Below, in pieces: positions 24,337 through 62,185 of a stretch of 64,000 nt of DNA. A program made the translations under genes and the position numbers. The notes under the pieces are model-generated. The model was not told where the DNA came from. It saw only the letters and a program-made list of their open reading frames with translations, and did not search any database. The stretch spans positions 43,237 to 107,236 of the forward strand of contig CAYRSA010000001.1 of the NCBI GenBank assembly GCA_964426845.1. The letters are read 5' to 3'. This DNA is from an uncultured Candidatus Saccharibacteria bacterium (GTDB taxonomy: Bacteria > Patescibacteriota > Saccharimonadia > Saccharimonadales > JAGQNJ01). Each line of letters begins with the position of its first letter. Position 1 is the first letter of the stretch.

Positions 24337-24690
24337 ATGACCAAAAACTTTGAAGACACTATACTCTCACTACTGCGTGGCATGGACCAGCGTATGGACG
24401 GAATGGCAGGAGATATAGCCGAATTGAAGACTGGCTACAACCACCTCGACAAAAAAATAGACTTGGTAATCGATATTTTGGCCGAACACACCGCAAAGCT
24501 AAAAGAGCACGACGAGCGTTTTTCTCAGATAGACGAGCGTTTTTCTCAGATAGACAAACGATTCGATGAGCACGACAGAATGTTCCGGCAAATTATTGAT
24601 GGTGTCATACCAGAGATGGAGACACGTACTAAACATAGTATGAAGCTCAAAAACCACGAGCGACGCATCACTGCACTCGAGTCAGCCTAA
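24337..24690 (+). CDS. coiled-coil protein with heptad DERFSQI repeats
   Basis: 117 aa; contains a 21-bp tandem duplication (24511-24552); TATACT 6 nt before ATG. Confidence 0.55.
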   Translation: MTKNFEDTILSLLRGMDQRMDGMAGDIAELKTGYNHLDKKIDLVIDILAEHTAKLKEHDERFSQIDERFSQIDKRFDEHDRMFRQIIDGVIPEMETRTKHSMKLKNHERRITALESA

Positions 24691-24739
24691 ACTCTTCGTT
24701 GCCAACAACAGGGGAGTCCGCTATAATTTCAAAGCATAT

Positions 24740-24814
24740 TCCCGGGTAGCTCAATGGTGGAGCAAGAAGCTGTTAACTTCGAGGTTGCCGGTTCGAGTCC
24801 GGCCCCGGGAGCCA
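24740..24814 (+). tRNA. tRNA-Asn (anticodon GTT), CCA encoded
   Basis: 75 nt; acceptor TCCCGGG/CCCGGGA, D arm GCTC/GAGC, anticodon loop CTGTTAA, T arm GCCGG-TTCGAGT-CCGGC; TATAAT promoter box at 24722. Confidence 0.92.
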
Positions 24815-24860
24815 AGCATAAGCATTTTCTTTACATTTCTTAATGCGATATAATTAGCGT

Positions 24861-25271
24861 ATGGCTGAACGAATTATCGGGATAGGTGAAACGAGTTCTT
24901 TTCGCTACTTTGCAATTCAGCCGCCCCTCGAAGATGTCGAAGCTAAAGCTCTTATTGACACACTGCAGCTTCCGTTCAGGGCTTACTGGCCGATGAACTT
25001 TACGCAAGAGCGAAGGGCTGACAGCCCGGACCATACCGAATTTGGAATTGACGTTGGAGCCGCTATAGATTGGATTGGGCTAGAAGAAGTCGATGGTGGA
25101 GCCGTTGAGATAGCTCAACAAATAGCATCTATCCTCGCCCAGCAAGGAGACGATGTTGTTGTTCTTGAAGATATTGTATCTACGAGCTGGGAAGCTCCCA
25201 TTTTTGGGCAAGATGCTGACCACCAAAGGGAGCTTGCGGAATACTTTAGGTCGCATCCAGAGCAAGAATAG
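24861..25271 (+). CDS. cassette 1: hypothetical acidic protein (136 aa)
   Basis: TATAAT (24849-24854) 6 nt before ATG; no domain recognised. Confidence 0.6.
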   Translation: MAERIIGIGETSSFRYFAIQPPLEDVEAKALIDTLQLPFRAYWPMNFTQERRADSPDHTEFGIDVGAAIDWIGLEEVDGGAVEIAQQIASILAQQGDDVVVLEDIVSTSWEAPIFGQDADHQRELAEYFRSHPEQE

Positions 25272-25349
25272 TCCGAGCATCCATCACCACCGAGAGCCAA
25301 GCATAATCGGAATGAGGCCTGAGAGGGTCTCTTTTGTTATGATTAGTGT
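25272..25349 (+). repeat. junction J1 (short form)
   Basis: left arm TCCGAGCATCCATCACCACCGAGA; core GAGAGCCAAGCATAATC 25292-25308; hairpin GAGGCC-TGAGAG-GGTCTC plus TTTTG; TATGAT 25338-25343. Confidence 0.8.
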
Positions 25350-26222
25350 ATGCGAGACTATGTAGCTGAAGTTAAGGCAGCCTTTCCTGAGCTAAAGATT
25401 AAGAAAACAAAGCTCTATGAAAATGGCTGGGATTGTGTAGTCGTAGAAGTGAATAACAGTCTCATGTTCCGCGTGCCAAGAAAAAAACGAGACATGACCA
25501 ACGACTGGAAACTCTTGGACTTCCTATCGAAGAAGGCCCTATCCGTACCCGGTGGCAATGTTATCTCGGCGGACGGTGTCATTACTGGTTATGAGAAGCT
25601 CCCAGGGGAAGAACTAAGGCCAAAAGTCCTCGAGAACCTAGACCCAGCTTTGAAAGGTGATGCCCTAAATCAGATAGCTGATTTCCTGACAGAACTGCAC
25701 GGTCTGGATATCAAAGAAGTTGAGGCTCTCGGCTACCAGCCAAAGGCTCCAGATTATTTGTTCGACAAGGTGCGGGGATGGGTTGATAAGTACCTGCCGC
25801 AACGCTTAAGTGGGCCAGAAATGGAACGGGTTGAGAAGTTTATGCATGAATGGGAAGAAAACATCGGTGGCTACACAGCTTGTTTAGTTCATTGCGACTT
25901 TTCATCAGACCATATCTTGTACAACAAGGAAGACAGCAACATACGATTAGGCTTTATTGACTTCTCGGACAGCATCATCCACGACCCAGCCTGGGACTTC
26001 GCCAAGCTATTCGACTACGGTGAGAAAGCATTCAAGCACATACTTGGCAGGTACAAAACAGCAAACAACAAGCACGGGATTGACAAACGAGCAAGAATCT
26101 ACAGAGAACGAACCTATGTATGGCACTTAGTTGACCCCTTCTTAGACCTGCCGTACTTACCCTTTGACTTTGAAACGGCATTGAAAGATTTCAGAGCTAA
26201 CATGATGTCAGAGAAAGATTAG
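25350..26222 (+). CDS. cassette 2: aminoglycoside/small-molecule phosphotransferase (APH family kinase)
   Basis: 290 aa; catalytic HCDFSSDHILY and IDFSD motifs of the APH/choline-kinase fold. Confidence 0.8.
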   Translation: MRDYVAEVKAAFPELKIKKTKLYENGWDCVVVEVNNSLMFRVPRKKRDMTNDWKLLDFLSKKALSVPGGNVISADGVITGYEKLPGEELRPKVLENLDPALKGDALNQIADFLTELHGLDIKEVEALGYQPKAPDYLFDKVRGWVDKYLPQRLSGPEMERVEKFMHEWEENIGGYTACLVHCDFSSDHILYNKEDSNIRLGFIDFSDSIIHDPAWDFAKLFDYGEKAFKHILGRYKTANNKHGIDKRARIYRERTYVWHLVDPFLDLPYLPFDFETALKDFRANMMSEKD

Positions 26223-26314
26223 TTCTAACGTCCGTCACTACCGAGACCCAAGCATAAGCGGGATGAGAAAGAGGCAGGAATACATCTTTTGATATCTTGG
26301 GATATACTGTAAAT
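26223..26314 (+). repeat. junction J2 (short form, unique right arm)
   Basis: left arm AGTTCTAACGTCCGTCACTACCGAGA; core GAGACCCAAGCATAAGC 26243-26259; TATACT 26303-26308. Confidence 0.75.
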
Positions 26315-26812
26315 GTGATTAAAATTGAATTTGTTCCTGAATCTGAAAGTTTTACTCCAGCAGCTAGTGAATATGCTGATATATGGAACGCTGATGGTTC
26401 TCGAGTGGTAGAAGCAATACAAACCGTGACTGGCTTACCCCTGGAAGAAGAAGTCCAAGCAGTGGTCTTTGAGGGGATAAGCCGCTCACACCCTCTTAAG
26501 TTCAGAGCTAGTTATGATAGAGAAACTAAAGCAGCTACTATTGTGCACGAGTTGTTGCACAGGGTTTGTGTTGCTAATCATCTTAAATTACCAGTGGATG
26601 ACGAAGACCGAGGCATAGCTGCTCACAAACAGATTGACCTGGCACTCTATGACATTTGGCGCAGTCTATATGGTCAAGAGTTTGCAGATAGACAGGTAGC
26701 AATTGAGTCTGAGAGAGCAAACGGTAAATACCGTGAAGCTTGGGGTTGGGCACTATCAATGTCAGAGCAAGAACGACAAGCTAAATTTGCTTCATTAATT
26801 CCCAAAGAATAG
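26315..26812 (+). CDS. cassette 3: hypothetical protein with HExxH-like motif (VHELLH)
   Basis: ORF track starts at TTG 26297; GTG 26315 lies exactly 6 nt after TATACT, as in the other cassettes. Confidence 0.55.
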   Translation: MIKIEFVPESESFTPAASEYADIWNADGSRVVEAIQTVTGLPLEEEVQAVVFEGISRSHPLKFRASYDRETKAATIVHELLHRVCVANHLKLPVDDEDRGIAAHKQIDLALYDIWRSLYGQEFADRQVAIESERANGKYREAWGWALSMSEQERQAKFASLIPKE

Positions 26813-26955
26813 TTCTATCTTCCATTGTTTTGGACAGAACCATAATCTGACCATAGTACTTGGTACGAAGTACGTCAGCTATAGGGAGCCAAGCATAAGC
26901 ACTTTGAAGGTGTTAAAACCTAGACATATATCACGTTTTGTGGTATTTTTAGTTT
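26813..26955 (+). repeat. junction J3 (long form)
   Basis: left arm AGTTCTATCTTCCATTG; insert CCATAATCTGACCATAGTACTTGGTACGAAGTACGTCAGCTA from 26840; exact core 26884-26900; right arm CCTAGACA..TTTTGTGGTATTTT; TATTTT 26944-26949. Confidence 0.85.
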
Positions 26956-27459
26956 GTGTCAGTTCGTGTTACTACTGAAGAAGCCCGAGAGTATGTAGCC
27001 TCCAAATTACATGGCCTCGAAACTCCTCGAATGATGAGGTTTCCGACAATGGGCAATCATCTTGCATCTGCAATCATTTGGGCTGCCTGTGGTGAGGAAG
27101 GACAAAGACACGATATTGGGTTTTATTACACTTCCTTCAGGATTATTAGCCCAAGACCGTTCGAACAAAACTTGCAAAGAAGTCAACTTTGGCTAGACGC
27201 CCTGGAGAACTTTGAAGAATATGAATGGGGAGCGCGTGAGAGGCTTAGAAATGGTGAAAGTGACAATATTTTAGACGGTCTCGATTGGGAGACGGCTGCT
27301 CAGTGGAAGTTTGATGATTGGCCAGTCGATATTTTCGCGGTTAACTCGCTTGGAGAGGCAGCAAAAGTTTCACACATGGGCGGATTTGTAGACTTAGATG
27401 ATACAAGCTGGCCTATCGTTCAGTCTTCAATTCACTATGGGATAGCAGAGCAGTTCTAA
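26956..27459 (+). CDS. cassette 4: hypothetical protein (167 aa)
   Basis: GTG start 6 nt after TATTTT; no domain recognised; its TAA stop is the second stop of the AGTTCTAA motif. Confidence 0.55.
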   Translation: MSVRVTTEEAREYVASKLHGLETPRMMRFPTMGNHLASAIIWAACGEEGQRHDIGFYYTSFRIISPRPFEQNLQRSQLWLDALENFEEYEWGARERLRNGESDNILDGLDWETAAQWKFDDWPVDIFAVNSLGEAAKVSHMGGFVDLDDTSWPIVQSSIHYGIAEQF

Positions 27460-27576
27460 TTTCTTTCAGCTCTGCCATTGCCATAATCTGACCATAGTAC
27501 TTGGTACGAAGTACGTCAGCTAGAGGGGCCAAGCATAAGCACTTTGAAAGAGGTGCTTTTTTGTTAGTATTAGAGC
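27460..27576 (+). repeat. junction J4 (long form)
   Basis: insert from 27481; core with 1-nt deletion GGGGCCAAGCATAAGC 27525-27540; hairpin AGCAC-TTTGAAAGAG-GTGCT plus TTTTTTG; TAGTAT 27565-27570. Confidence 0.85.
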
Positions 27577-28224
27577 ATGAAAGTTGCGATTACAGGAGCG
27601 AACGGAAAAGTTGCACAGGCATTGATTGGCCAGCTTGACCCTGAACGATTTGAAATTACTAAACTAGACATCCCAGACCACGACTCAGCTAATCTGGATG
27701 CCTTAATTGCTGATACCAAGGGTCATGACGCACTTATTCATCTGGCCTGGAAAGACCTAGACGTAGGCTCTGTTGACCCAATCAATGGGGTTATGTACGA
27801 GAACGCCTACAGAGCGGCTGTGGCAAACGGAATTAGTCTTGTTATGATGGGTAGCTCCAACCATGCTAGAAGCCACGAGCAGCGTGAAGCTGATGGTCGG
27901 ATACGATACACAGGCCAAGCCGAATTAGCTAATAACCTCTATGGGGTGGAGAAGCAGAAGATGGAGGCAATGGGGAGGCTGTTTGCTGCAACAGAAGGGT
28001 TGTCAGTGCTCTGTGTGCGTATCGGCAATATTAATCCAGAAGATGAACCACGCCCCGACGTGCCGACCAGGTGGATGAGTCACAGAGACTGGGGAAACTT
28101 TGCAAGTCTTGCTTTAGAGTACGCTTTTCCTGAAGGGCATTTCGAGATAGCTTATGGCGTAAGCGACCAACCTATCTTCGACTGGACTAATTCATTTGGT
28201 TACGAGCCACAAGACAAAGCTTAG
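27577..28224 (+). CDS. cassette 5: NAD(P)-binding Rossmann protein (epimerase/dehydratase-like, short)
   Basis: 215 aa; MKVAITGANGKVAQAL glycine-rich dinucleotide motif. Confidence 0.65.
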   Translation: MKVAITGANGKVAQALIGQLDPERFEITKLDIPDHDSANLDALIADTKGHDALIHLAWKDLDVGSVDPINGVMYENAYRAAVANGISLVMMGSSNHARSHEQREADGRIRYTGQAELANNLYGVEKQKMEAMGRLFAATEGLSVLCVRIGNINPEDEPRPDVPTRWMSHRDWGNFASLALEYAFPEGHFEIAYGVSDQPIFDWTNSFGYEPQDKA

Positions 28225-28353
28225 CTCTAACTTCCATCACACCCGACATCGCCATAATCTGTCCGTAATACTTAGTACGAAGTACGTCAGCTAGAGGAAG
28301 CCAAGCATAAGCGGAATGAGACCTGAGAGGGTCTCTTTTGTTATGATTAAGAA
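28225..28353 (+). repeat. junction J5 (long form)
   Basis: left arm AGCTCTAACTTCCATCACACCCGACA; insert from 28251; core GGAAGCCAAGCATAAGC 28296-28312; hairpin GAGACC-TGAGAG-GGTCTC plus TTTTG; TATGAT 6 nt before ATG. Confidence 0.85.
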
Positions 28354-28839
28354 ATGGGTGTTAAGAACTATCTGATTGAAGGTGTCTCAGGAACAGGCAA
28401 AAGCTCGGTTTGCCAGGAACTTAGGCGTCGTGGCTACGATGTGGTGGATGGCGATAAAGAGCTGGCTTATCAAGGTGACCCTGAAACAGGCGAAAAGACA
28501 GAAGGGCATACTCACCAACACCACATCTGGAATGAAGCTAAAGTCCGTAAAATTGCTTCAGACCACACAAAGTCAGTTACTTACTTTTGTGGTGGTTCAA
28601 GAAACTTCAGCAGGTTCTTAGACGTGTTCGACAGGATATACATCCTGGATGTTGACGAAGCAACCCTAAACGACCGACTAGACAGTAGGGATGGATGGGG
28701 TAAAGAAAAATCTGAACGTGAATTAGTATTAAGGCTTCATGAGAGCAAGGAAGACTTGCCACAAGACGGTATAGAGATAGATGCCACGGAGCCACTGTCA
28801 AAAGTGGTGGATAAAATCATTAGCTCATCAGAAGCCTAG
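28354..28839 (+). CDS. cassette 6: P-loop kinase-like protein
   Basis: 161 aa; GVSGTGKSS Walker A at the N-terminus. Confidence 0.6.
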   Translation: MGVKNYLIEGVSGTGKSSVCQELRRRGYDVVDGDKELAYQGDPETGEKTEGHTHQHHIWNEAKVRKIASDHTKSVTYFCGGSRNFSRFLDVFDRIYILDVDEATLNDRLDSRDGWGKEKSERELVLRLHESKEDLPQDGIEIDATEPLSKVVDKIISSSEA

Positions 28840-28907
28840 TTATAACATCCCCCACTACTAAGAGCCACAACCTAGACAAATTTCACTTTTTGTGGTATTT
28901 TAGTGAT
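28840..28907 (+). repeat. junction J6 (degenerate short form)
   Basis: left arm AGTTATAACATCCCCCACTACTAAGA; only GAGCCA of the core retained, then CCTAGACAAATTTCACTTTTTGTGGTATTTT (same right arm as J3); TATTTT 28896-28901. Confidence 0.7.
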
Positions 28908-29453
28908 ATGAATGTCCGTAGAGAAACCGACCCGCAATCACCAACGTCTCCCATACTTGCTAGGTGGTTGGCATATGATGATGAATATTGCGAGCACGAT
29001 ATTACGCTAGAAACTGCTGGCGGCCGACATGGCATAGGCATTTGGAAAGAAGAAGGTGAGATAGTTGTAGCTACCGGAAACCTTTGGGTTGATGAAAAAA
29101 TGCGTCAAACTGGCGTCGGTACTAGGCTACTTAAAGCCGGTCTTGTATTGGCCAAGAGCCACGGAGCCACAATATCAAGCTCTGATGTCTACTCGCCCCA
29201 TGCATTAAAAATTAGGCAAAATATATTTGGTGAAAACAATCTTAGATTTTGGGACGCATCCAACTTCAATATAGGTGAGCTACCTATTTCAGTAAGTCAA
29301 GCAATTATGTCTCTTGAGCGGGCTGCCCAGAGTGCCGAAGAGTATAGAACAAGCGAAGAGGGATTTATCGTTAGGTCTGTACTTGCCGATGTAGATATGT
29401 GCGACTGGGAGCAACCTATAGAAGTGAACGCTCCTGACCTGCCAACGGACTAA
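28908..29453 (+). CDS. cassette 7: GNAT-like N-acetyltransferase
   Basis: ORF track starts at TTG 28890; ATG 28908 is 6 nt after TATTTT; acetyl-CoA loop-like MRQTGVGTRLLKAGLVLAKSHGA. Confidence 0.55.
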   Translation: MNVRRETDPQSPTSPILARWLAYDDEYCEHDITLETAGGRHGIGIWKEEGEIVVATGNLWVDEKMRQTGVGTRLLKAGLVLAKSHGATISSSDVYSPHALKIRQNIFGENNLRFWDASNFNIGELPISVSQAIMSLERAAQSAEEYRTSEEGFIVRSVLADVDMCDWEQPIEVNAPDLPTD

Positions 29454-29594
29454 TACTCTTTTTCCATCACTTCCGAGAGCGCCATAATTTGACCGTAGTA
29501 CTTGGTACGAAGCAAGTCAGCTAGAGGGAGCCAAGCATAAGCGATATGAGACCTGAGAAGGTCTCTTTTGTTGTTTGTGGGGTATACTATCTGT
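29454..29594 (+). repeat. junction J7 (long form)
   Basis: left arm TACTCTTTTTCCATCACTTCCGAGA; insert from 29481; exact core 29526-29542; hairpin GAGACC-TGAGAA-GGTCTC plus TTTTG; TATACT 29583-29588. Confidence 0.85.
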
Positions 29595-30284
29595 ATGAAA
29601 CTTGCAGGTGAAACAGCGGTTATAGTCGGTGGAAGCCAAGGAATCGGGCGGGCGCTGGCCGAAGGACTGCTCCACGAAGGTGCCAATGTTGTAATCGCTA
29701 GTCGAACCCAAGAAACAGTAGAAAAGACTGCTGAAGAAATTGGTGCAGAGGCTTTTGTTGTAGACGTACGTGAAGAACAGGACTTAAGAGACCTTGCTGC
29801 TTTTGCAATCGAGACTTTTGGTGGAATTAACTTATGGGTCAATAGTGCGGGTCAATTCAAGAAGTTTCCCAAGGAAGACCTCCTTGACATGGAAAGAGCT
29901 CATGAGATGTTTGACGTAAACTTTTTTGGTGCTGTACTTGGCTCAAGAACAGCATTGCTCAATATGGAAGACGGTGCATTAATTAACTTACTATCCAGCG
30001 CAGCACTCGATGCCACTCGGTCTGTTGGAGCTAAGTTATATGCATCAAGCAAGTGGGCACTGCGGGGCTATGTAGATGCATTGCGTGGTGAAAATCCAGA
30101 CAGTCCAGTAAGAATACTTTCTGTTTATCCAGGTGGCACGAAGTCACACCTACATGACGAAGCTCTGCCCGATGAATTTGCAAATTTTATGGAGCCAGAG
30201 CATGTTGTTGAGAAAGTTATCGCAAACTTGCTACTCGAAGAGCCAGAACTAGATTTAGTTATTAAGCGACCGTCAGTAAGCTAG
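29595..30284 (+). CDS. cassette 8: short-chain dehydrogenase/reductase (SDR)
   Basis: ORF track starts at TTG 29568; ATG 29595 (MKLAGETAVIVGGSQGIGRA) is 6 nt after TATACT; YASSK catalytic motif. Confidence 0.85.
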   Translation: MKLAGETAVIVGGSQGIGRALAEGLLHEGANVVIASRTQETVEKTAEEIGAEAFVVDVREEQDLRDLAAFAIETFGGINLWVNSAGQFKKFPKEDLLDMERAHEMFDVNFFGAVLGSRTALLNMEDGALINLLSSAALDATRSVGAKLYASSKWALRGYVDALRGENPDSPVRILSVYPGGTKSHLHDEALPDEFANFMEPEHVVEKVIANLLLEEPELDLVIKRPSVS

Positions 30285-30402
30285 GCCTACCCCAAGCAAT
30301 CTCCATAACCTGACCGTAATACCTGGTAAGAAGTACGTCAGCTAGAGGGAGCCAAGCATAAGCGCTTTGAATAAGGTGCTTTTTTGTTAGTATTAGGCCA
30401 GT
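30285..30402 (+). repeat. junction J8 (long form, most diverged)
   Basis: left part GCCTACCCCAAGCAATCTCCATAACC; insert from 30302; exact core 30347-30363; hairpin AGCGC-TTTGAATAAG-GTGCT (A-T, G-C, C-G, G.U, C-G pairs) plus TTTTTTG; TAGTAT 9 nt before ATG. Confidence 0.8.
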
Positions 30403-31635
30403 ATGTCAACAGTCTCTTTTATTCGTTCTCCATGTGAGGTCCTGGTACTTGATGAGGTCAAGACTGGGTCTCGATTTCTTGAACTTCCACCTCCCGAATA
30501 CACAGACAGGGAATATGAAGAGGTCTTCCGAGATGCACAAGCAAGGCTAGGGCTTGAAGATTTAGAGCCTGTTCATGAAGGAGGGAAAACAAAACTTGTA
30601 GCCCCTGACGGATACAAGTTTCGGATAACTGGAGCTTTTACCCTCTGGCCAGACGGTAATGATATTTCCTGGGGCTATGGACCTCCTACGGACAGTTACG
30701 AAGAATGGCGCAGACAAAATCAGGGTAGCTTGGCTAGGTATGAGGCTGAGGGGTTAAGTCCTGAAGAAGCTGAGAAACGGGTTGCTGACGGAGAATGGGA
30801 GACAAGTACATATGGCATTCCGAGTATTGAATATTATGAAGGCCCAAGTCTGACATTTTCTTTTGATGACGTGGAGTGGGGAGGAATTGTGCCAACAGAC
30901 AGAGAAAGCAGACACTCTTCTGATGATGGGCCGCCCACTGTTAAGGTACGACTAAGTCATTATAGGGAAACTTGGTTAGAGCAAGCGCGTAGGCATATAA
31001 AACTGCCTAATAGCGAAAATGACAGATTGCTTGCAACCCACCAATACGGACAGCCCGGAATAATTCCTTGCTGGAAGGGTGGACACAGTGATGGTGATAT
31101 AGAAAATATCGCGATTGAACTTGTACCAATCGGTGAAGACGATGGAGACAAAGAATTGCCTATGCTGAAAAGATTGTGGGTACCCGAGAATGTACGATGG
31201 ACTTTATATGAAGACTTCCCCGACTTAATAGACCAAGATGGCGACGAAGCAAGCCGCACGGACATGGGAGGTGCAATGCGCATGTTTGGGGAAGTTATGG
31301 GGCTTCTTGGTGGTTCAGACCAGAATATGTTTGACCAATTAAGCGCGGAAAGCAGATTAGCAGTCGTCGACCACCCTATGCTTGCTCATATGGATACTGG
31401 GAAGTTAGCAGAAGCCGTTGAGGAGCTTATTCAAATCACAAATGAGCAAGAACCAGGGAAAGATAGAGAGCGAGAGAGAGAAGAGGAAAATGCTAAAAAG
31501 ATGGAAGCAAAACGGAAACGACTCGTAGTTATAACAGACTTGGACGAAAGTATTCATTCGGTTGCTCGAAGAATAGGGGCAGACGACACTTGGCTCGAAG
31601 ACCACGCTCGCTATGTCAATAGCTTTGACTGGTAA
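30403..31635 (+). CDS. cassette 9: hypothetical acidic protein (410 aa)
   Basis: long ORF, no domain recognised; C-terminal charged EREREEENAKKMEAKRKR stretch. Confidence 0.6.
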   Translation: MSTVSFIRSPCEVLVLDEVKTGSRFLELPPPEYTDREYEEVFRDAQARLGLEDLEPVHEGGKTKLVAPDGYKFRITGAFTLWPDGNDISWGYGPPTDSYEEWRRQNQGSLARYEAEGLSPEEAEKRVADGEWETSTYGIPSIEYYEGPSLTFSFDDVEWGGIVPTDRESRHSSDDGPPTVKVRLSHYRETWLEQARRHIKLPNSENDRLLATHQYGQPGIIPCWKGGHSDGDIENIAIELVPIGEDDGDKELPMLKRLWVPENVRWTLYEDFPDLIDQDGDEASRTDMGGAMRMFGEVMGLLGGSDQNMFDQLSAESRLAVVDHPMLAHMDTGKLAEAVEELIQITNEQEPGKDREREREEENAKKMEAKRKRLVVITDLDESIHSVARRIGADDTWLEDHARYVNSFDW

Positions 31636-31771
31636 TGTGAAGTTCTAGCTTCCACAGCCTTCGCCATGGCCATAATCTGACCATAATACTTAGTACGAAG
31701 TACGTCAGCTAGAGGGAGCCAAGCGTAAGCGTTTTGAGACCTGGAAGGGTCTCTTTTGTTATACTAGGACA
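31636..31771 (+). repeat. junction J9 (long form)
   Basis: left arm GAAGTTCTAGCTTCCACAGCC; insert from 31669; core GGGAGCCAAGCGTAAGC 31714-31730; hairpin GAGACC-TGGAAG-GGTCTC plus TTTTG; TATACT 31760-31765. Confidence 0.85.
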
Positions 31772-32218
31772 ATGGATTTACACGAACTTGCAAAAGAGTA
31801 TCTAGGCAGTGTCAAGCACATGCAACTTGCTACCGTCAAGAATGGTCAGCCATGGATTTGTACCGTCTATTTTGTGGCTGATGACGATTACAATTTTTAT
31901 TGGACGTCGGGCCGAGACAAGCAACACTCGGTTGAAATAAAATCTGATCCAAGAGCCGCGGCTACCGTAGTTCTAGACACTGATAAAAAACGAGCTCTAC
32001 AGATGGCGGGTAGTGCCGAGGAAGTCAGTGATGAGGAGTTAGAGCGCGTACACCAGCTATACCAGTCAAAATTTGGCTCAAAAGACTATGATTTAGAGGA
32101 AATGAAACAGCACAAGGCCGTCGGCCGAGCCTATTGGAAGTTTAAGCCTTCTGTAGCCATGTTTTGGGACGAGGTTAACTTCCCAGACACGCCAAAACAA
32201 CGCTTGAATCTGGTATAA
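31772..32218 (+). CDS. cassette 10: pyridoxamine 5'-phosphate oxidase-family (FMN-binding split barrel) protein
   Basis: 148 aa; N-terminal HMQLATVKNGQPWICTVYF pattern typical of PNPOx/general-stress-26-like proteins. Confidence 0.7.
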   Translation: MDLHELAKEYLGSVKHMQLATVKNGQPWICTVYFVADDDYNFYWTSGRDKQHSVEIKSDPRAAATVVLDTDKKRALQMAGSAEEVSDEELERVHQLYQSKFGSKDYDLEEMKQHKAVGRAYWKFKPSVAMFWDEVNFPDTPKQRLNLV

Positions 32219-32331: not shown

Positions 32332-32490
32332 ATGTCAAAAATGACAAAAGAAGAAGAAATCGACTGGTACGAGCGGTCCAAGAAACATTGGCGTTCGTGG
32401 GGTTCGTGGTTCAGTTGGGGCTCTCCTGTCGGGTTAGGACTATTTTTCCTAGCCTGCGCCGGAGCCATCTGGATCATTGCTCAGATATAG
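32332..32490 (+). CDS. small Trp-rich membrane protein (52 aa)
   Basis: SD AAGGAG 7 nt upstream; MSKMTKEEEIDWYERSKKHWRSWGSWFSWGSPVGLGLFFLACAGAIWIIAQI; below ORF-track cutoff. Confidence 0.45.
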   Translation: MSKMTKEEEIDWYERSKKHWRSWGSWFSWGSPVGLGLFFLACAGAIWIIAQI

Positions 32491-32685
32491 AGCAATCAGC
32501 AGGGAAGCAGGGCGTCACAACATGGCGCTCTGTTTTTGTCTTTTGTAGACAAGCACCCACTTTTGTGATATTTTCCATTATATGCCCTTAAGAATTGATG
32601 AGACTACGCCTTTTGACTTGGTACGAGAGCTGTCTCCAACCCGGCACGCCGCTACCGCTGCTAGAGATAGACCCCTAGACACCGA

Positions 32686-62026: not shown

Positions 62027-62111
62027 TGGTGCCGGAGGAGGGACTCGAACCCTCAATCCCGAAGGAACACGATTTTGAGTCGTGCGCGTATACCAATTCC
62101 GCCACTCCGGC
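62027..62111 (-). tRNA. tRNA-Leu (anticodon CAA), CCA encoded
   Basis: 85 nt; acceptor GCCGGAG/CTCCGGC, anticodon stem-loop CACGA-CTCAAAA-TCGTG, long variable arm, T arm GAGGG-TTCGAGT-CCCTC. Confidence 0.9.
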
Positions 62112-62185
62112 ATGCGTCAAATTGTACTACATTTACCCCAAGAGATGATATACTTTTATCTGTTAGACAAGCATAAGTTATACCT

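What the first reader, a model, noticed from the sequence alone, without database searches (positions are those of the whole stretch)
25272..31771. Junctions are mosaics of exchangeable modules: left arm, an optional 44-nt insert bounded by GCCA half-sites, the core, and one of three right arms
Seen in sequence.
- Long forms (J3, J4, J5, J7, J8, J9) carry ..GAGA|GCCATAATC-hairpin-GCTAGAGGGA|GCCAAGCATAAGC. Short forms (J1, J2) jump directly from ..CCGAGA to GCCAAGCATAA(T/G)C. The insert is therefore flanked by two related half-sites, GCCA-TAATC and GCCAAGCATAATC, and a long form can convert to a short form by recombination or deletion between them.
- Right arms fall into three types. Type A is the hairpin GAGACC-TGAGAG-GGTCTC plus TTTTGTTATGAT or TTTTGTTATACT (J1, J5, J7, J9). 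Type B is the hairpin AGCAC-TTTGAAAGAG-GTGCT plus TTTTTTGTTAGTAT (J4, J8). Type C is CCTAGACA-N7-CAC-TTTTGTGGTATTTT (J3, J6).
- J3 begins like type B (CACTTTGAAGGTGTT) and then switches to type C. J2 is unique.
- Left-arm and right-arm types combine freely.

Inference: the shuffling implies repeated recombination at or near the core, not simple tandem duplication of one unit.
Basis: seen in the sequence. Interest (0 to 1): 0.55.

Follow-up and report, generated by a model that had tools for sequence, protein, structure and literature searches.

The report
Gene-cassette array behind tRNA-Asn in Saccharibacteria
The repeated "junctions" are hybrid recombination sites separating ten single-gene cassettes stacked behind a tRNA-Asn gene in a Saccharibacteria genome, which looks like an integron-style gene-capture locus that has no integron machinery and may be served by a large serine recombinase encoded elsewhere.

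Summary

The core is the 3' end of tRNA-Asn (24740-24814) plus 9 nt. The region is the interior of an array of ten same-strand, single-ORF cassettes (24861-32218).

Each junction has three parts:
- the end arm of the upstream cassette;
- GAGCCA, which is shared with the tRNA;
- a terminator/promoter arm belonging to the downstream cassette.

The two sides belong to different cassettes, so the mosaic is expected.

A strain 99.75% identical upstream carries a different first cassette, and homology stops at the last base of the core. Eight related Saccharibacteria loci hold variable or foreign DNA at the same tRNA end, and seven of them repeat the GAGCCA junction. Almost no genes are shared between them.

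No recombinase was found in the window. In three relatives an element encoding a large serine recombinase sits at exactly this GCCA position. In two of them it ends in the window's short left arm. That makes this enzyme family the best candidate, but this is inferred.

It is not an integron. There is no IntI and no attC. The hairpin shows no covariation.

Corrections: the insert is 49 nt, not 44. J2 is not unique.

The parts
24699..24727 (+). sigma-70-like promoter of tRNA-Asn (TTGCCA-17-TATAAT)
24740..24814 (+). tRNA-Asn(GTT) with encoded CCA. Its last 8 nt, GGGAGCCA, are the left half of the repeated core. This is the anchor (attB/attI-like site) of the array.
24815..24860 (+). J0 right arm: AGCATAAGC plus a promoter (TATAAT, 6 nt, ATG) for cassette 1
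24861..25271 (+). cassette 1 ORF, 136 aa, no family match
25270..25299 (+). J1 short left arm, ending GAGAGCCA
   Evidence: D7
25300..25349 (+). J1 right arm, type A: AGCATAATC, terminator hairpin 25314-25331, T-run, TGnTATGAT, 6 nt
   Evidence: (D4)
25350..26222 (+). cassette 2 ORF, 290 aa, APH phosphotransferase family
26221..26250 (+). J2 short left arm (AGTTCTAACGTCCGTCACTACCGAGACCCA)
26251..26314 (+). J2 right arm, a D-like variant with TATACT, 6 nt and in-frame GTG at 26315
26315..26812 (+). cassette 3 ORF (the ORF lister starts it at TTG 26297), about 165 aa, no family match
26811..26842 (+). J3 proximal left arm (AGTTCTATCTTCC...AACCA)
   Evidence: D2
26843..26891 (+). J3 49-nt palindromic module, TAATC...GTCAGCTATAGGGAGCCA
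26892..26955 (+). J3 right arm: AGCATAAGC, degenerate type B stub, then type C full promoter (TAGACA-17-TATTTT with TG)
   Evidence: D5, D6
26956..27459 (+). cassette 4 ORF, 167 aa, no family match
27484..27531 (+). J4 module (48 nt, one base shorter)
27532..27576 (+). J4 right arm, type B: terminator 27537-27558, then TGTTAGTAT
   Evidence: D5
27577..28224 (+). cassette 5 ORF, 215 aa, NAD-dependent epimerase/dehydratase family
28223..28254 (+). J5 proximal left arm (AGCTCTAACTTCCATCAC...GCCA), homologous to the short arm
28255..28303 (+). J5 49-nt module
28304..28353 (+). J5 right arm, type A (terminator 28318-28335)
28354..28839 (+). cassette 6 ORF, 161 aa, AAA_18 P-loop kinase family
28838..28867 (+). 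J6 short left arm (AGTTATAACATCCCCCACTACTAAGAGCCA)
28868..28907 (+). J6 right arm, type C, directly after CCA with no AGCATAAGC. Promoter TAGACA-17-TATTTT, 6 nt, ATG at 28908.
   Evidence: D6
28908..29453 (+). cassette 7 ORF, GNAT acetyltransferase (the ORF lister starts it at TTG 28890)
29485..29533 (+). J7 49-nt module, preceded by the short-arm-like TTTCCATCACTTCCGAGAGCGCCA
29534..29594 (+). J7 right arm: type A terminator 29548-29565, then D-type promoter GGGGTATACT, 6 nt, ATG at 29595
29595..30284 (+). cassette 8 ORF, short-chain dehydrogenase
30306..30354 (+). J8 49-nt module
30355..30402 (+). J8 right arm, type B (terminator 30360-30381)
30403..31635 (+). cassette 9 ORF, 410 aa, no family match
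31673..31721 (+). J9 49-nt module
31722..31771 (+). J9 right arm, type A (terminator 31736-31753, TGTTATACT)
31772..32218 (+). last unit, 148 aa, PNPOx-like. No left arm or core follows it, so it may be the original chromosomal neighbour of the tRNA rather than a cassette.
32542..32574 (+). orphan type-C-like promoter beyond the array
   Evidence: D6

Best explanation
The region is the interior of a cassette array built by site-specific recombination at the 3' end of tRNA-Asn.

**Anatomy of a cassette**
- A right arm that carries a terminator (in types A, B and D) and a promoter placed a fixed 6 nt before the start codon. This spacing implies leaderless mRNA.
- Exactly one ORF.
- A left arm that begins at or inside the stop codon (AGTTCTAACTTCC...) and ends in GAGCCA. 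In six cassettes the left arm is lengthened by a 49-nt palindromic module that also ends in GAGCCA.

**How the mosaic arises**
GAGCCA is shared with the tRNA's acceptor end and contains or abuts the crossover. Insertion at the tRNA pushes older cassettes distally. Each internal junction is therefore a hybrid site: the left arm of cassette k, then GAGCCA, then the right arm of cassette k+1. This produces the observed mosaic without any need to shuffle arms independently.

**The enzyme**
The recombinase acts in trans and is not encoded in the window. The best candidate is a family of large serine recombinases. Elements encoding them occupy exactly the same GCCA| position in related genomes and end in the same short left arm. 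On this view the cassettes would be recombinase-less passengers, as in staphylococcal SCC composite islands.

**Shown versus inferred**
- Shown: the anatomy, the tRNA anchoring, the strain-level cassette replacement with a breakpoint at the core, the conservation of the architecture across species, and the shared position and arm of the serine-recombinase elements.
- Inferred: that cassettes move as units, the identity of the enzyme, and the exact crossover nucleotides.
For: - The core equals the tRNA-Asn 3' end plus 9 nt and recurs nine times on one strand.
- There are ten co-oriented single ORFs. Seven of them have Pfam hits to unrelated small-molecule-modifying enzyme families.
- Array GC is 0.45-0.46, against 0.49-0.52 in the flanks.
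- L001, L002, L006 and L008 share 99.7-99.9% identical flanks but carry a different first cassette. Homology ends at window 24823.
- Eleven independent assemblies break at or just after the tRNA.
- The same architecture is present in L009, L012, L013, L015, L020 and L022. RAGCCA| is the one nearly invariant element in 43 junctions.
- Gene content across these arrays is almost entirely different.
- Right arms are predicted terminators (6 of 6 type A and B arms) and promoters.
- Large serine recombinase elements begin at tRNA...GAGCCA|TTGTGA in L012 and L022. They end with TAGTTCTAACTTCC(G/A)TCACTACGG(A/G)GAGCCA|, which is the window's short left arm. L013 holds a recombinase remnant at the same place.
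- The recombinase family is widespread in Saccharimonadales and Patescibacteria.
- There is precedent for tandem integrations at tRNA genes separated by partial tRNA copies (10.1101/2020.12.28.424599). There is also precedent for serine recombinases mobilising tandem SCC-like elements (PMC11470126).
Against: - No recombinase of any kind was found in the 64-kb window. The rest of that genome could not be examined.
- No cassette was seen in two different array positions, and no circular form was seen. Mobility of individual cassettes is therefore inferred from replacement at the tRNA-proximal slot only.
- Canonical large serine recombinases recombine attP with attB. The window junctions look like attR-type hybrids (an element arm plus the tRNA-flank sequence AGCATAAGC).
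- The right arms are too diverse to form one conserved P' half-site.
- Reconstructed attP and attB sites show no dyad symmetry above shuffles.
- The 15-17 nt identity block is more typical of tyrosine integrases.
- The 49-nt module has no demonstrated link to the serine recombinase.
Confidence: 0.6

Rival explanations
1. The array architecture is the same, but the enzyme is a tyrosine integrase of the class that targets the 3' end of tRNA genes. It would be encoded elsewhere in the genome, or on a helper element.
For: - The tRNA flank and the cassette junctions share a 15-17 nt identity block, GGGAGCCAAGCATAAGC. This is typical of tyrosine-integrase core identity.
- The module contains 6-bp inverted repeats around a 6-bp spacer (GTACTT-GGTACG-AAGTAC), which resembles a core-type site.
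- From memory: the enterobacterial asn-tRNA islands (Yersinia HPI, ICEKp) use a 17-bp repeat, CCAGTCAGAGGAGCCAA, at the same tRNA end with a P4-type integrase. The E. coli tRNA-Asn 3' sequence itself was verified.
Against: - No tyrosine recombinase was seen in the window or in any of about 200 kb of related loci, whereas serine recombinases were seen three times at this exact site.
- Type C and several foreign right arms share only GAGCCA with the tRNA site.
Confidence: 0.2
2. The repeats are fossils of old integrations. Present-day shuffling would then be driven by homologous recombination between the 60-120-nt junction repeats after DNA uptake, together with slippage deletions between repeats. 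No active cassette recombinase would be needed.
For: - Junction repeats are long and similar enough for short-patch homologous recombination: 66-83% identity to the reference over 76 nt, and about 90% for the module plus core.
- J3 looks like a deletion scar, with a type B stub fused to a type C arm.
- J4 has lost one base of the core.
- No recombinase is present in the window.
Against: - It does not explain how unrelated ORFs became embedded between the same arms in the first place.
- It does not explain why nearly every junction in every species keeps RAGCCA, while sequence to the right of it is free to differ.
- Recombinase-bearing elements are inserted at that exact base in relatives.
Confidence: 0.15
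3. It is a classical integron, or a cluster of attC sites that has lost its integrase.
For: Co-oriented single-ORF cassettes with enzyme-type cargo, separated by about 60-140-nt repeats with hairpin potential, and variable between strains.
Against: - No IntI was found.
- The junctions have no R''/R' boxes placed as in attC.
- Breakpoints map to GCCA, not to a GTTRRRY box.
- The hairpin shows no covariation, and RNAalifold does not predict it.
- The short forms have no hairpin at all.
- Every cassette has its own promoter.
Confidence: 0.02
4. The junctions are copies of a small non-autonomous intergenic element (MITE/REP-like, or an IS200/IS605-type hairpin end recognised by an HUH transposase). 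These would have inserted between resident genes, so the genes themselves would not be mobile.
For: - Short conserved units with hairpins, all in one orientation, next to a fixed tetranucleotide (GCCA). This resembles the geometry of IS200/IS605 ends.
Against: - In the 64-kb window the repeats occur only in this array.
- Gene content, not just repeat content, differs between near-identical strains and between species.
- No TnpA or other HUH protein was found.
- Short forms lack the hairpin, and the hairpin lacks covariation.
Confidence: 0.03

Closest known systems
Integrons (IntI, attI, attC gene cassettes; chromosomal 'super-integrons')
   Same: - Ordered, co-oriented array of mostly single-ORF cassettes.
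- ORF-precise packaging between conserved repeats.
- Unrelated genes carry near-identical species-typical repeats.
- Cargo of small-molecule-modifying enzymes: acetyltransferase, phosphotransferase, dehydrogenases.
- The slot nearest the anchor differs between strains.
   Different: - The anchor is the 3' end of a tRNA gene, not attI.
- There is no adjacent integrase and no tyrosine recombinase in view.
- The repeats are not attC: no R/L boxes, no structural covariation, and the crossover maps to GAGCCA.
- Every cassette brings its own promoter for a leaderless mRNA, and most bring a terminator.
Staphylococcal cassette chromosome composite islands (Ccr large serine recombinases at the 3' end of rlmH)
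   Same: - Tandem units downstream of a housekeeping gene's 3' end.
- Each unit is bounded by the same short direct repeat.
- Some units carry the serine recombinase and others do not. The latter are mobilised alongside (PMC11470126).
- Here, serine-recombinase elements and recombinase-less units share one insertion point and one end arm.
   Different: - The units here are about 0.5-1.4 kb single genes rather than elements of 20-70 kb.
- The target is a tRNA gene.
- The recombinase family was not compared with Ccr, and no activity was shown.
Tycheposons and tRNA-anchored genomic islands of Prochlorococcus
   Same: - Repeated integration at one tRNA gene pushes older elements outward.
- Units are separated by partial tRNA copies.
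- Both tyrosine and large serine recombinases are used.
- The setting is a streamlined genome with few other mobile elements (10.1101/2020.12.28.424599).
   Different: - Tycheposons are multi-kb elements with their own integration and replication modules.
- Here the repeated tRNA piece is only 6-17 nt.
- The units are single ORFs with standardised promoter and terminator arms.
asn-tRNA islands of Enterobacteriaceae (Yersinia HPI, ICEKp)
   Same: - Integration at the extreme 3' end of tRNA-Asn, with a short direct repeat ending ...GAGCCAA (recalled from memory).
- The E. coli tRNA-Asn end CAGTCAGAGGAGCCA was verified. It resembles the module's GTCAGCTAGAGGGAGCCA.
   Different: - Those are single large islands with a P4-type tyrosine integrase, not cassette arrays.
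- The resemblance of the module to a foreign tRNA-Asn 3' half is weak (shuffle p about 0.013).

Membership tests
Integron | intI tyrosine recombinase gene next to the array | tested here: not met
   Pfam and PHROG scans of the flanking and unannotated ORFs found no Phage_integrase or other recombinase. The whole-window batch scan listed only the top 25 of 68 families, so this check is not exhaustive.
Integron | attC sites: imperfect inverted repeats (R''/L''...L'/R') that fold as a hairpin, with crossover in the GTTRRRY box | tested here: not met
   Breakpoints map to GAGCCA. The proposed hairpin has no covariation and is not predicted by RNAalifold. Short junctions have no hairpin.
Integron | co-oriented, mostly single-ORF cassettes whose content varies between strains | tested here: met
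   Ten co-oriented single ORFs. The first cassette is replaced in a strain with 99.75% identical flanks.
Integron | cassettes generally promoterless, expressed from Pc | tested here: not met
   All ten units have a -10 box, with 6 nt (9 nt in J8) to the start codon.
tRNA-targeting integrative elements in tandem (tycheposon-like islands) | integration in a tRNA gene, with a direct repeat of its 3' part at each boundary | tested here: met
   GGGAGCCA(AGCATAAGC) of tRNA-Asn is repeated at nine junctions. The same holds in seven other loci.
tRNA-targeting integrative elements in tandem (tycheposon-like islands) | each element encodes its own integrase | tested here: not met
   None of the ten window units encodes a recombinase. 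Only the large elements in L012 and L022, and the remnant in L013, do.
Large-serine-recombinase element with recombinase-less satellite cassettes (SCC-like) | large serine recombinase (Resolvase, Recombinase and zinc-ribbon domains) acting at the repeated site | tested here: inconclusive
   The enzyme is present at exactly this site in L012, L022 and L013 (remnant) and shares the short left arm. It is absent from the window. Activity was not tested.
Large-serine-recombinase element with recombinase-less satellite cassettes (SCC-like) | all units bounded by the same att core, in direct orientation, downstream of one housekeeping gene | tested here: met
Large-serine-recombinase element with recombinase-less satellite cassettes (SCC-like) | recombinase-less units excised and inserted in trans | not testable with these tools
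   This needs read-level junction or circle detection, or an assay.
IS200/IS605-type (HUH) ends or MITE/REP repeats | cognate transposase in the genome, conserved subterminal hairpins, and copies dispersed between otherwise conserved genes | tested here: not met
   No such protein was found. The hairpin is absent from short forms and lacks covariation. In 64 kb the repeats are confined to the array. Genes differ between strains.

The most novel reading that the evidence does not exclude
A previously undescribed gene-capture platform in Saccharibacteria (Candidate Phyla Radiation) that works like an integron but evolved independently:
- The CCA end of tRNA-Asn serves as the insertion site.
- Cassettes are ORF-precise single genes. 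Each is packaged with a standard terminator/leaderless-promoter arm and a standard end arm.
- A large serine recombinase, carried by occasional helper elements that use the same site, supplies the recombination in trans.
Probability: 0.35. Interest if true: 0.8.

Novelty: new variant of a known kind. Interest (0 to 1): 0.62.

Why it matters
- Saccharibacteria are ultra-small episymbionts with genomes of about 1 Mb and few recognised mobile elements. How they acquire accessory genes is poorly understood.
- This locus stockpiles interchangeable, individually expressed genes at one tRNA, and it differs between strains that are 99.7% identical. It would be a main route of adaptive gene flux in this lineage. 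The cargo includes kinase, acetyltransferase, dehydrogenase and flavin-enzyme families.
- It would also be a second, independent solution to the cassette-array problem that integrons solve.
- If the serine recombinase link holds, it offers a natural system in which such an enzyme handles many short cassettes at a defined 6-nt core.
- Practically, the locus breaks short-read assemblies. Eleven contigs end there, so its content is under-represented in metagenome-assembled genomes.

Tried and rejected
- **Public collection scans for the module plus core.** One GTDB genome matched (L009/L010). Two JGI metagenome scans found nothing. Viral contig scans found nothing.
- **Rfam at permissive E-value.** Only the tRNA itself matched. 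The junctions are not tRNA-like or any known RNA.
- **Hairpin as a structured site.** There was no covariation, and it was not predicted as a consensus structure.
- **Dyad symmetry** of reconstructed attP, attB and cassette-circle sites was no better than shuffles.
- **Module as a relic of a tRNA-Asn 3' half.** The match to the resident tRNA is not significant (p = 0.16). The match to E. coli tRNA-Asn is weak (p = 0.013, gap-rich). I kept this only as a lead.
- **Recombinase search in the window.** Nothing by Pfam or PHROGs. tblastn with the L012 serine recombinase hit only the 13 codons that overlap the tRNA antisense.
- **Replication terminus or dif site.** The GC-skew profile was uninformative.
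- **Same cassette in two contexts.** The only other contig with a window cassette (L011) has the same order. The PNPOx unit is not on record.
- **Literature.** Seven full-text searches (six on Saccharibacteria/Patescibacteria cassette arrays, integrons and serine recombinases, one for tycheposons) found no description of this locus.

Full report
**1. What is at the coordinates**

The region 25272-31771 runs from the stop codon of one small gene to the start codon of another. It contains eight further small genes, all on the + strand, separated by nine intergenic junctions of 56-149 nt.

GCCAAGCATAAGC with up to 2 mismatches occurs 14 times in the 64-kb window, against 1.96 expected. Nine of these hits form a same-strand series. 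That first copy is the end of a tRNA-Asn(GTT) gene at 24740-24814 (Rfam 63.6 bits). GCCA is the discriminator base plus the encoded CCA, and AGCATAAGC is the 9 nt that follow the tRNA. The 'core' is therefore a repeated copy of a tRNA 3' end. This is the classical signature of site-specific integration into a tRNA gene.

**2. The observation checked**

- Six long left arms (J3, J4, J5, J7, J8, J9), which align without gaps over 76 nt.
- Two short left arms (J1, J2).
- Nine cores.
- Four type A right arms (J1, J5, J7, J9).
- Two type B arms (J4, J8) plus a partial copy in J3.
- Two type C arms (J3, J6) plus an orphan copy at 32542-32574.

Corrections:
- The optional insert measures 49 nt between the two CCA ends (48 in J4).
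- The upstream 'half-site' is GCCA in only four of the six window copies, and it is degenerate in other genomes.
- J6 lacks AGCATAAGC.
- J2 is not unique. Aligned with arms from other loci, it falls into one family with type A and a 'type D' arm. J7 is an A/D hybrid.
- The hairpin is possible (84% of cells paired) but variation does not preserve pairing better than shuffles. RNAalifold does not predict it.
- The 3' half of the module (GTCAGCTA...GCC) is nearly invariant and the 5' half is not. This points to sequence recognition rather than structure.

**3. What the arms are**

All six type A and type B arms are called as intrinsic-terminator-like sites. The terminator T-run leads straight into TGn plus a -10 hexamer. 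Type C is a complete promoter, TAGACA-17-TATTTT with an upstream TG.

In nine of the ten units, including the one next to the tRNA, the -10 hexamer is followed by exactly 6 nt and then the start codon. This implies leaderless transcripts. It also corrects three ORF starts, to 26315, 28908 and 29595.

On the other side, the left arm begins at or inside the stop codon (TAGTTCTAAC...). The variable part of each unit is therefore almost exactly one ORF.

The ORFs are unrelated to each other. They comprise APH phosphotransferase, NAD-epimerase, AAA_18 kinase, GNAT acetyltransferase, short-chain dehydrogenase, a PNPOx-like protein and four with no family match. The array has lower GC (0.45-0.46) than its flanks (0.49-0.52).

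**4. Evidence from elsewhere**

The gene upstream of the tRNA encodes SmpB. Contigs carrying the identical SmpB come from several sequencing runs and are 99.5-99.9% identical to the window upstream of the tRNA.
- In four of them (L001, L002, L006, L008) the tRNA and AGCATAAGC are followed by a different right arm. In L001 and L002 a different cassette can be read behind it, and L001 shows three genes ending in a long left arm. The alignment to the window stops at 24823, the last base of the core.
- Another contig (L004) diverges one base after GCCA.
- Eleven contigs end at or just beyond the tRNA.

Loci found through SmpB homologues of 81-89% identity, plus the one GTDB genome that matched the module, all identify as Saccharibacteria where named. 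Most of them show the same design downstream of tRNA-Asn.

I aligned 43 junctions from 14 loci on the CCA end:
- RAGCCA is conserved in nearly all. The exceptions are GACCCA, GGGCCA, GAGTCA and GAGCCG.
- To its left there are a few arm classes: the tRNA itself; AGTTCTAACTTCC(R)TCACTACSGRGAGCCA; AGTTATRACTTCCTCTAT..GTGAGCCA; TCCTAGACCGA.CCGCTGAGCCA; and the 49-nt module.
- To its right the sequence is free: AGCATAAGC, AGCAGAAGC, TGCAAAAGC, AAACTATAT, CAACCTAGA, TTGTGAACG and others.
- In L015 a type C arm follows the tRNA's CCA directly, exactly as at window J6.

One hundred ORFs from ten arrays share almost nothing by BLASTP, yet each right-arm type precedes unrelated genes in several species. 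Breakpoints sit at the core, and arm types do not track the adjacent gene.

**5. Why the junctions are mosaics**

Suppose a circular unit carrying [left arm-GAGCCA-right arm] recombines with the tRNA site at GAGCCA.
- Its right arm ends up next to the tRNA.
- Its left arm is joined to whatever followed the tRNA before.

Repeating this gives internal junctions made of the left arm of one unit and the right arm of the next. Free combination of arm types follows directly. So does the finding that each right-arm type appears directly behind the tRNA in some genome: A in L021, C in L015, D in L001, and a fourth type in the window.

Two further points fit this picture:
- J3 (core, type B stub, type C arm) and J4 (core one base short) look like later deletion scars.
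- The last unit (PNPOx, 31772-32218) has no left arm or core after it. It may be the original neighbour of the tRNA. Its type A arm would then be the tRNA's native terminator region.

**6. The recombinase**

None was found in the window. The scan of the whole window was not exhaustive.

Evidence from related loci:
- In L012 a 535-aa large serine recombinase lies directly after the tRNA (GAGCCA|TTGTGAACGAACAGCC...). About 7.9 kb further on, the element ends with TAGTTCTAACTTCCGTCACTACGGAGAGCCA|. Ordinary cassettes follow.
- In L022, a more distant genome with a different tRNA-Asn acceptor stem, a 63%-identical recombinase again abuts the tRNA (GAGCCA|TTGTGAGCGAACAGCC...). About 11 kb on, that element ends with TAGTTCTAACTTCCATCACTACGGGGAGCCA|, followed by further small units.
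- L013 has a remnant of the same gene at the same place, and its element also ends in ...GAGCCA|AGCATAAGC.

The end arm of these elements is the window's short left arm (J2: TAGTTCTAACGTCCGTCACTACCGAGACCCA). The recombinase family is common in Saccharimonadales and other Patescibacteria. This is the strongest lead to the enzyme. It suggests an arrangement like staphylococcal SCC composite islands, where Ccr serine recombinases mobilise neighbouring recombinase-less units (PMC11470126).

The enzyme assignment remains an inference, for these reasons:
- The right arms are too diverse to be one conserved half-site.
- The junctions look like attR-type hybrids.
- No dyad symmetry was detectable.
- The 17-nt identity block would suit a tyrosine integrase equally well.
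- The 49-nt module has no demonstrated connection to the serine recombinase.

**7. The 49-nt module**

It always lies between a (Y)CCA and the GAGCCA core, so it is bounded like a gene-less unit. The six window copies, together with their upstream 27-32 nt, form one gap-free family. The same module occurs in L001, L009, L010, L012 and L013.

Its sequence aligns weakly with the 3' half of E. coli tRNA-Asn from the anticodon loop to CCA (p about 0.013). It does not align significantly with the resident tRNA (p = 0.16). It may be a relic of a foreign tRNA-Asn half, or a second class of recombinase arm. I could not decide between these. Nothing shows that long forms convert into short forms by deletion.

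**8. Comparison with known systems and novelty**

Functionally the locus resembles an integron. It fails the defining tests: no IntI, no attC, a different crossover site, and promoters on every cassette.

It meets the tRNA-repeat criterion of tandem tRNA islands such as tycheposon islands (10.1101/2020.12.28.424599). It differs from them because the units are single ORFs without integrases.

It shares the logic of SCC composite islands, but on a miniature scale and at a tRNA gene.

Seven full-text literature searches found no description of it.

I rate it a new variant of a known kind: site-specific tandem integration at a tRNA gene, here producing an integron-like array of ORF-precise, self-expressed cassettes in a Candidate Phyla Radiation lineage.

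**9. Verdict**

- The mosaic is the expected consequence of hybrid att sites.
- The open questions are the enzyme (a serine recombinase is the best lead), the role of the 49-nt module, and whether single cassettes still move.

Noticed in passing
L012:10530-12137 (-) and L022:10001-11608 (+): The large serine recombinase ORFs read about 13 codons into the antisense strand of tRNA-Asn. The protein's C-terminus would therefore differ between the integrated and the excised state of the element.
   Followed up: partly
L012:18439-18596: A 158-nt gene-less unit flanked by GAGCCA|TGCAAAA(A/G)C on both sides. It ends in a perfect 19-nt copy of the tRNA-Asn 3' end (AGTCCGGCCCCGGGAGCCA) and is probably a displaced older attachment site.
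   Followed up: partly
window 32503-32574: A strong terminator (15-bp stem) is followed immediately by an orphan type-C-like promoter (TAGACA-17-TATTTT with TG). This lies beyond the last cassette, after a 52-aa hydrophobic ORF (32332-32490). It may be a degenerate older part of the array.
   Followed up: no
window 24337-24690: A 117-aa coiled-coil-like ORF lies between smpB and the tRNA. It contains a perfect tandem duplication (GACGAGCGTTTTTCTCAGATA x2, about 24510-24555). Its homologues in relatives vary in length (68-117 aa).
   Followed up: no
L022:1-510 (- strand): An 87-aa GIY-YIG protein forms its own unit bounded by GAGCCA| on both sides. It has 11-nt inverted repeats (TTCGACTCGGC/GCCGAGTCGAA) in its upstream arm.
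   Followed up: no
L013:10890-17640: A restriction-modification island (N6_N4 methyltransferase plus ResIII helicase-nuclease) occupies the tRNA-proximal slot. It sits next to a decayed serine recombinase gene and is bounded by GAGCCA on both sides.
   Followed up: partly
L015:11122-13113: This genome uses a different junction repeat, present in three copies: TCCTAGACCGA.CCGCTGAGCCA|AAAC.ATATCTTT...terminator...TATACT. Its left arm contains CCTAGAC, the same heptamer as the -35 region of the type C right arm.
   Followed up: no
window 25258-25271 and 26209-26222: The similarity between the J1 and J2 left arms extends about 12 nt upstream of the stop codons, into two unrelated ORFs (CAGAGCAAGAATAG and CAGAGAAAGATTAG). 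The arm therefore seems to supply the last few codons.
   Followed up: no
window 62166-62178: A near-core sequence (GACAAGCATAAGT) lies about 55 nt from the 5' end of tRNA-Leu (62027-62111, - strand). It has 2 mismatches and is probably chance.
   Followed up: no
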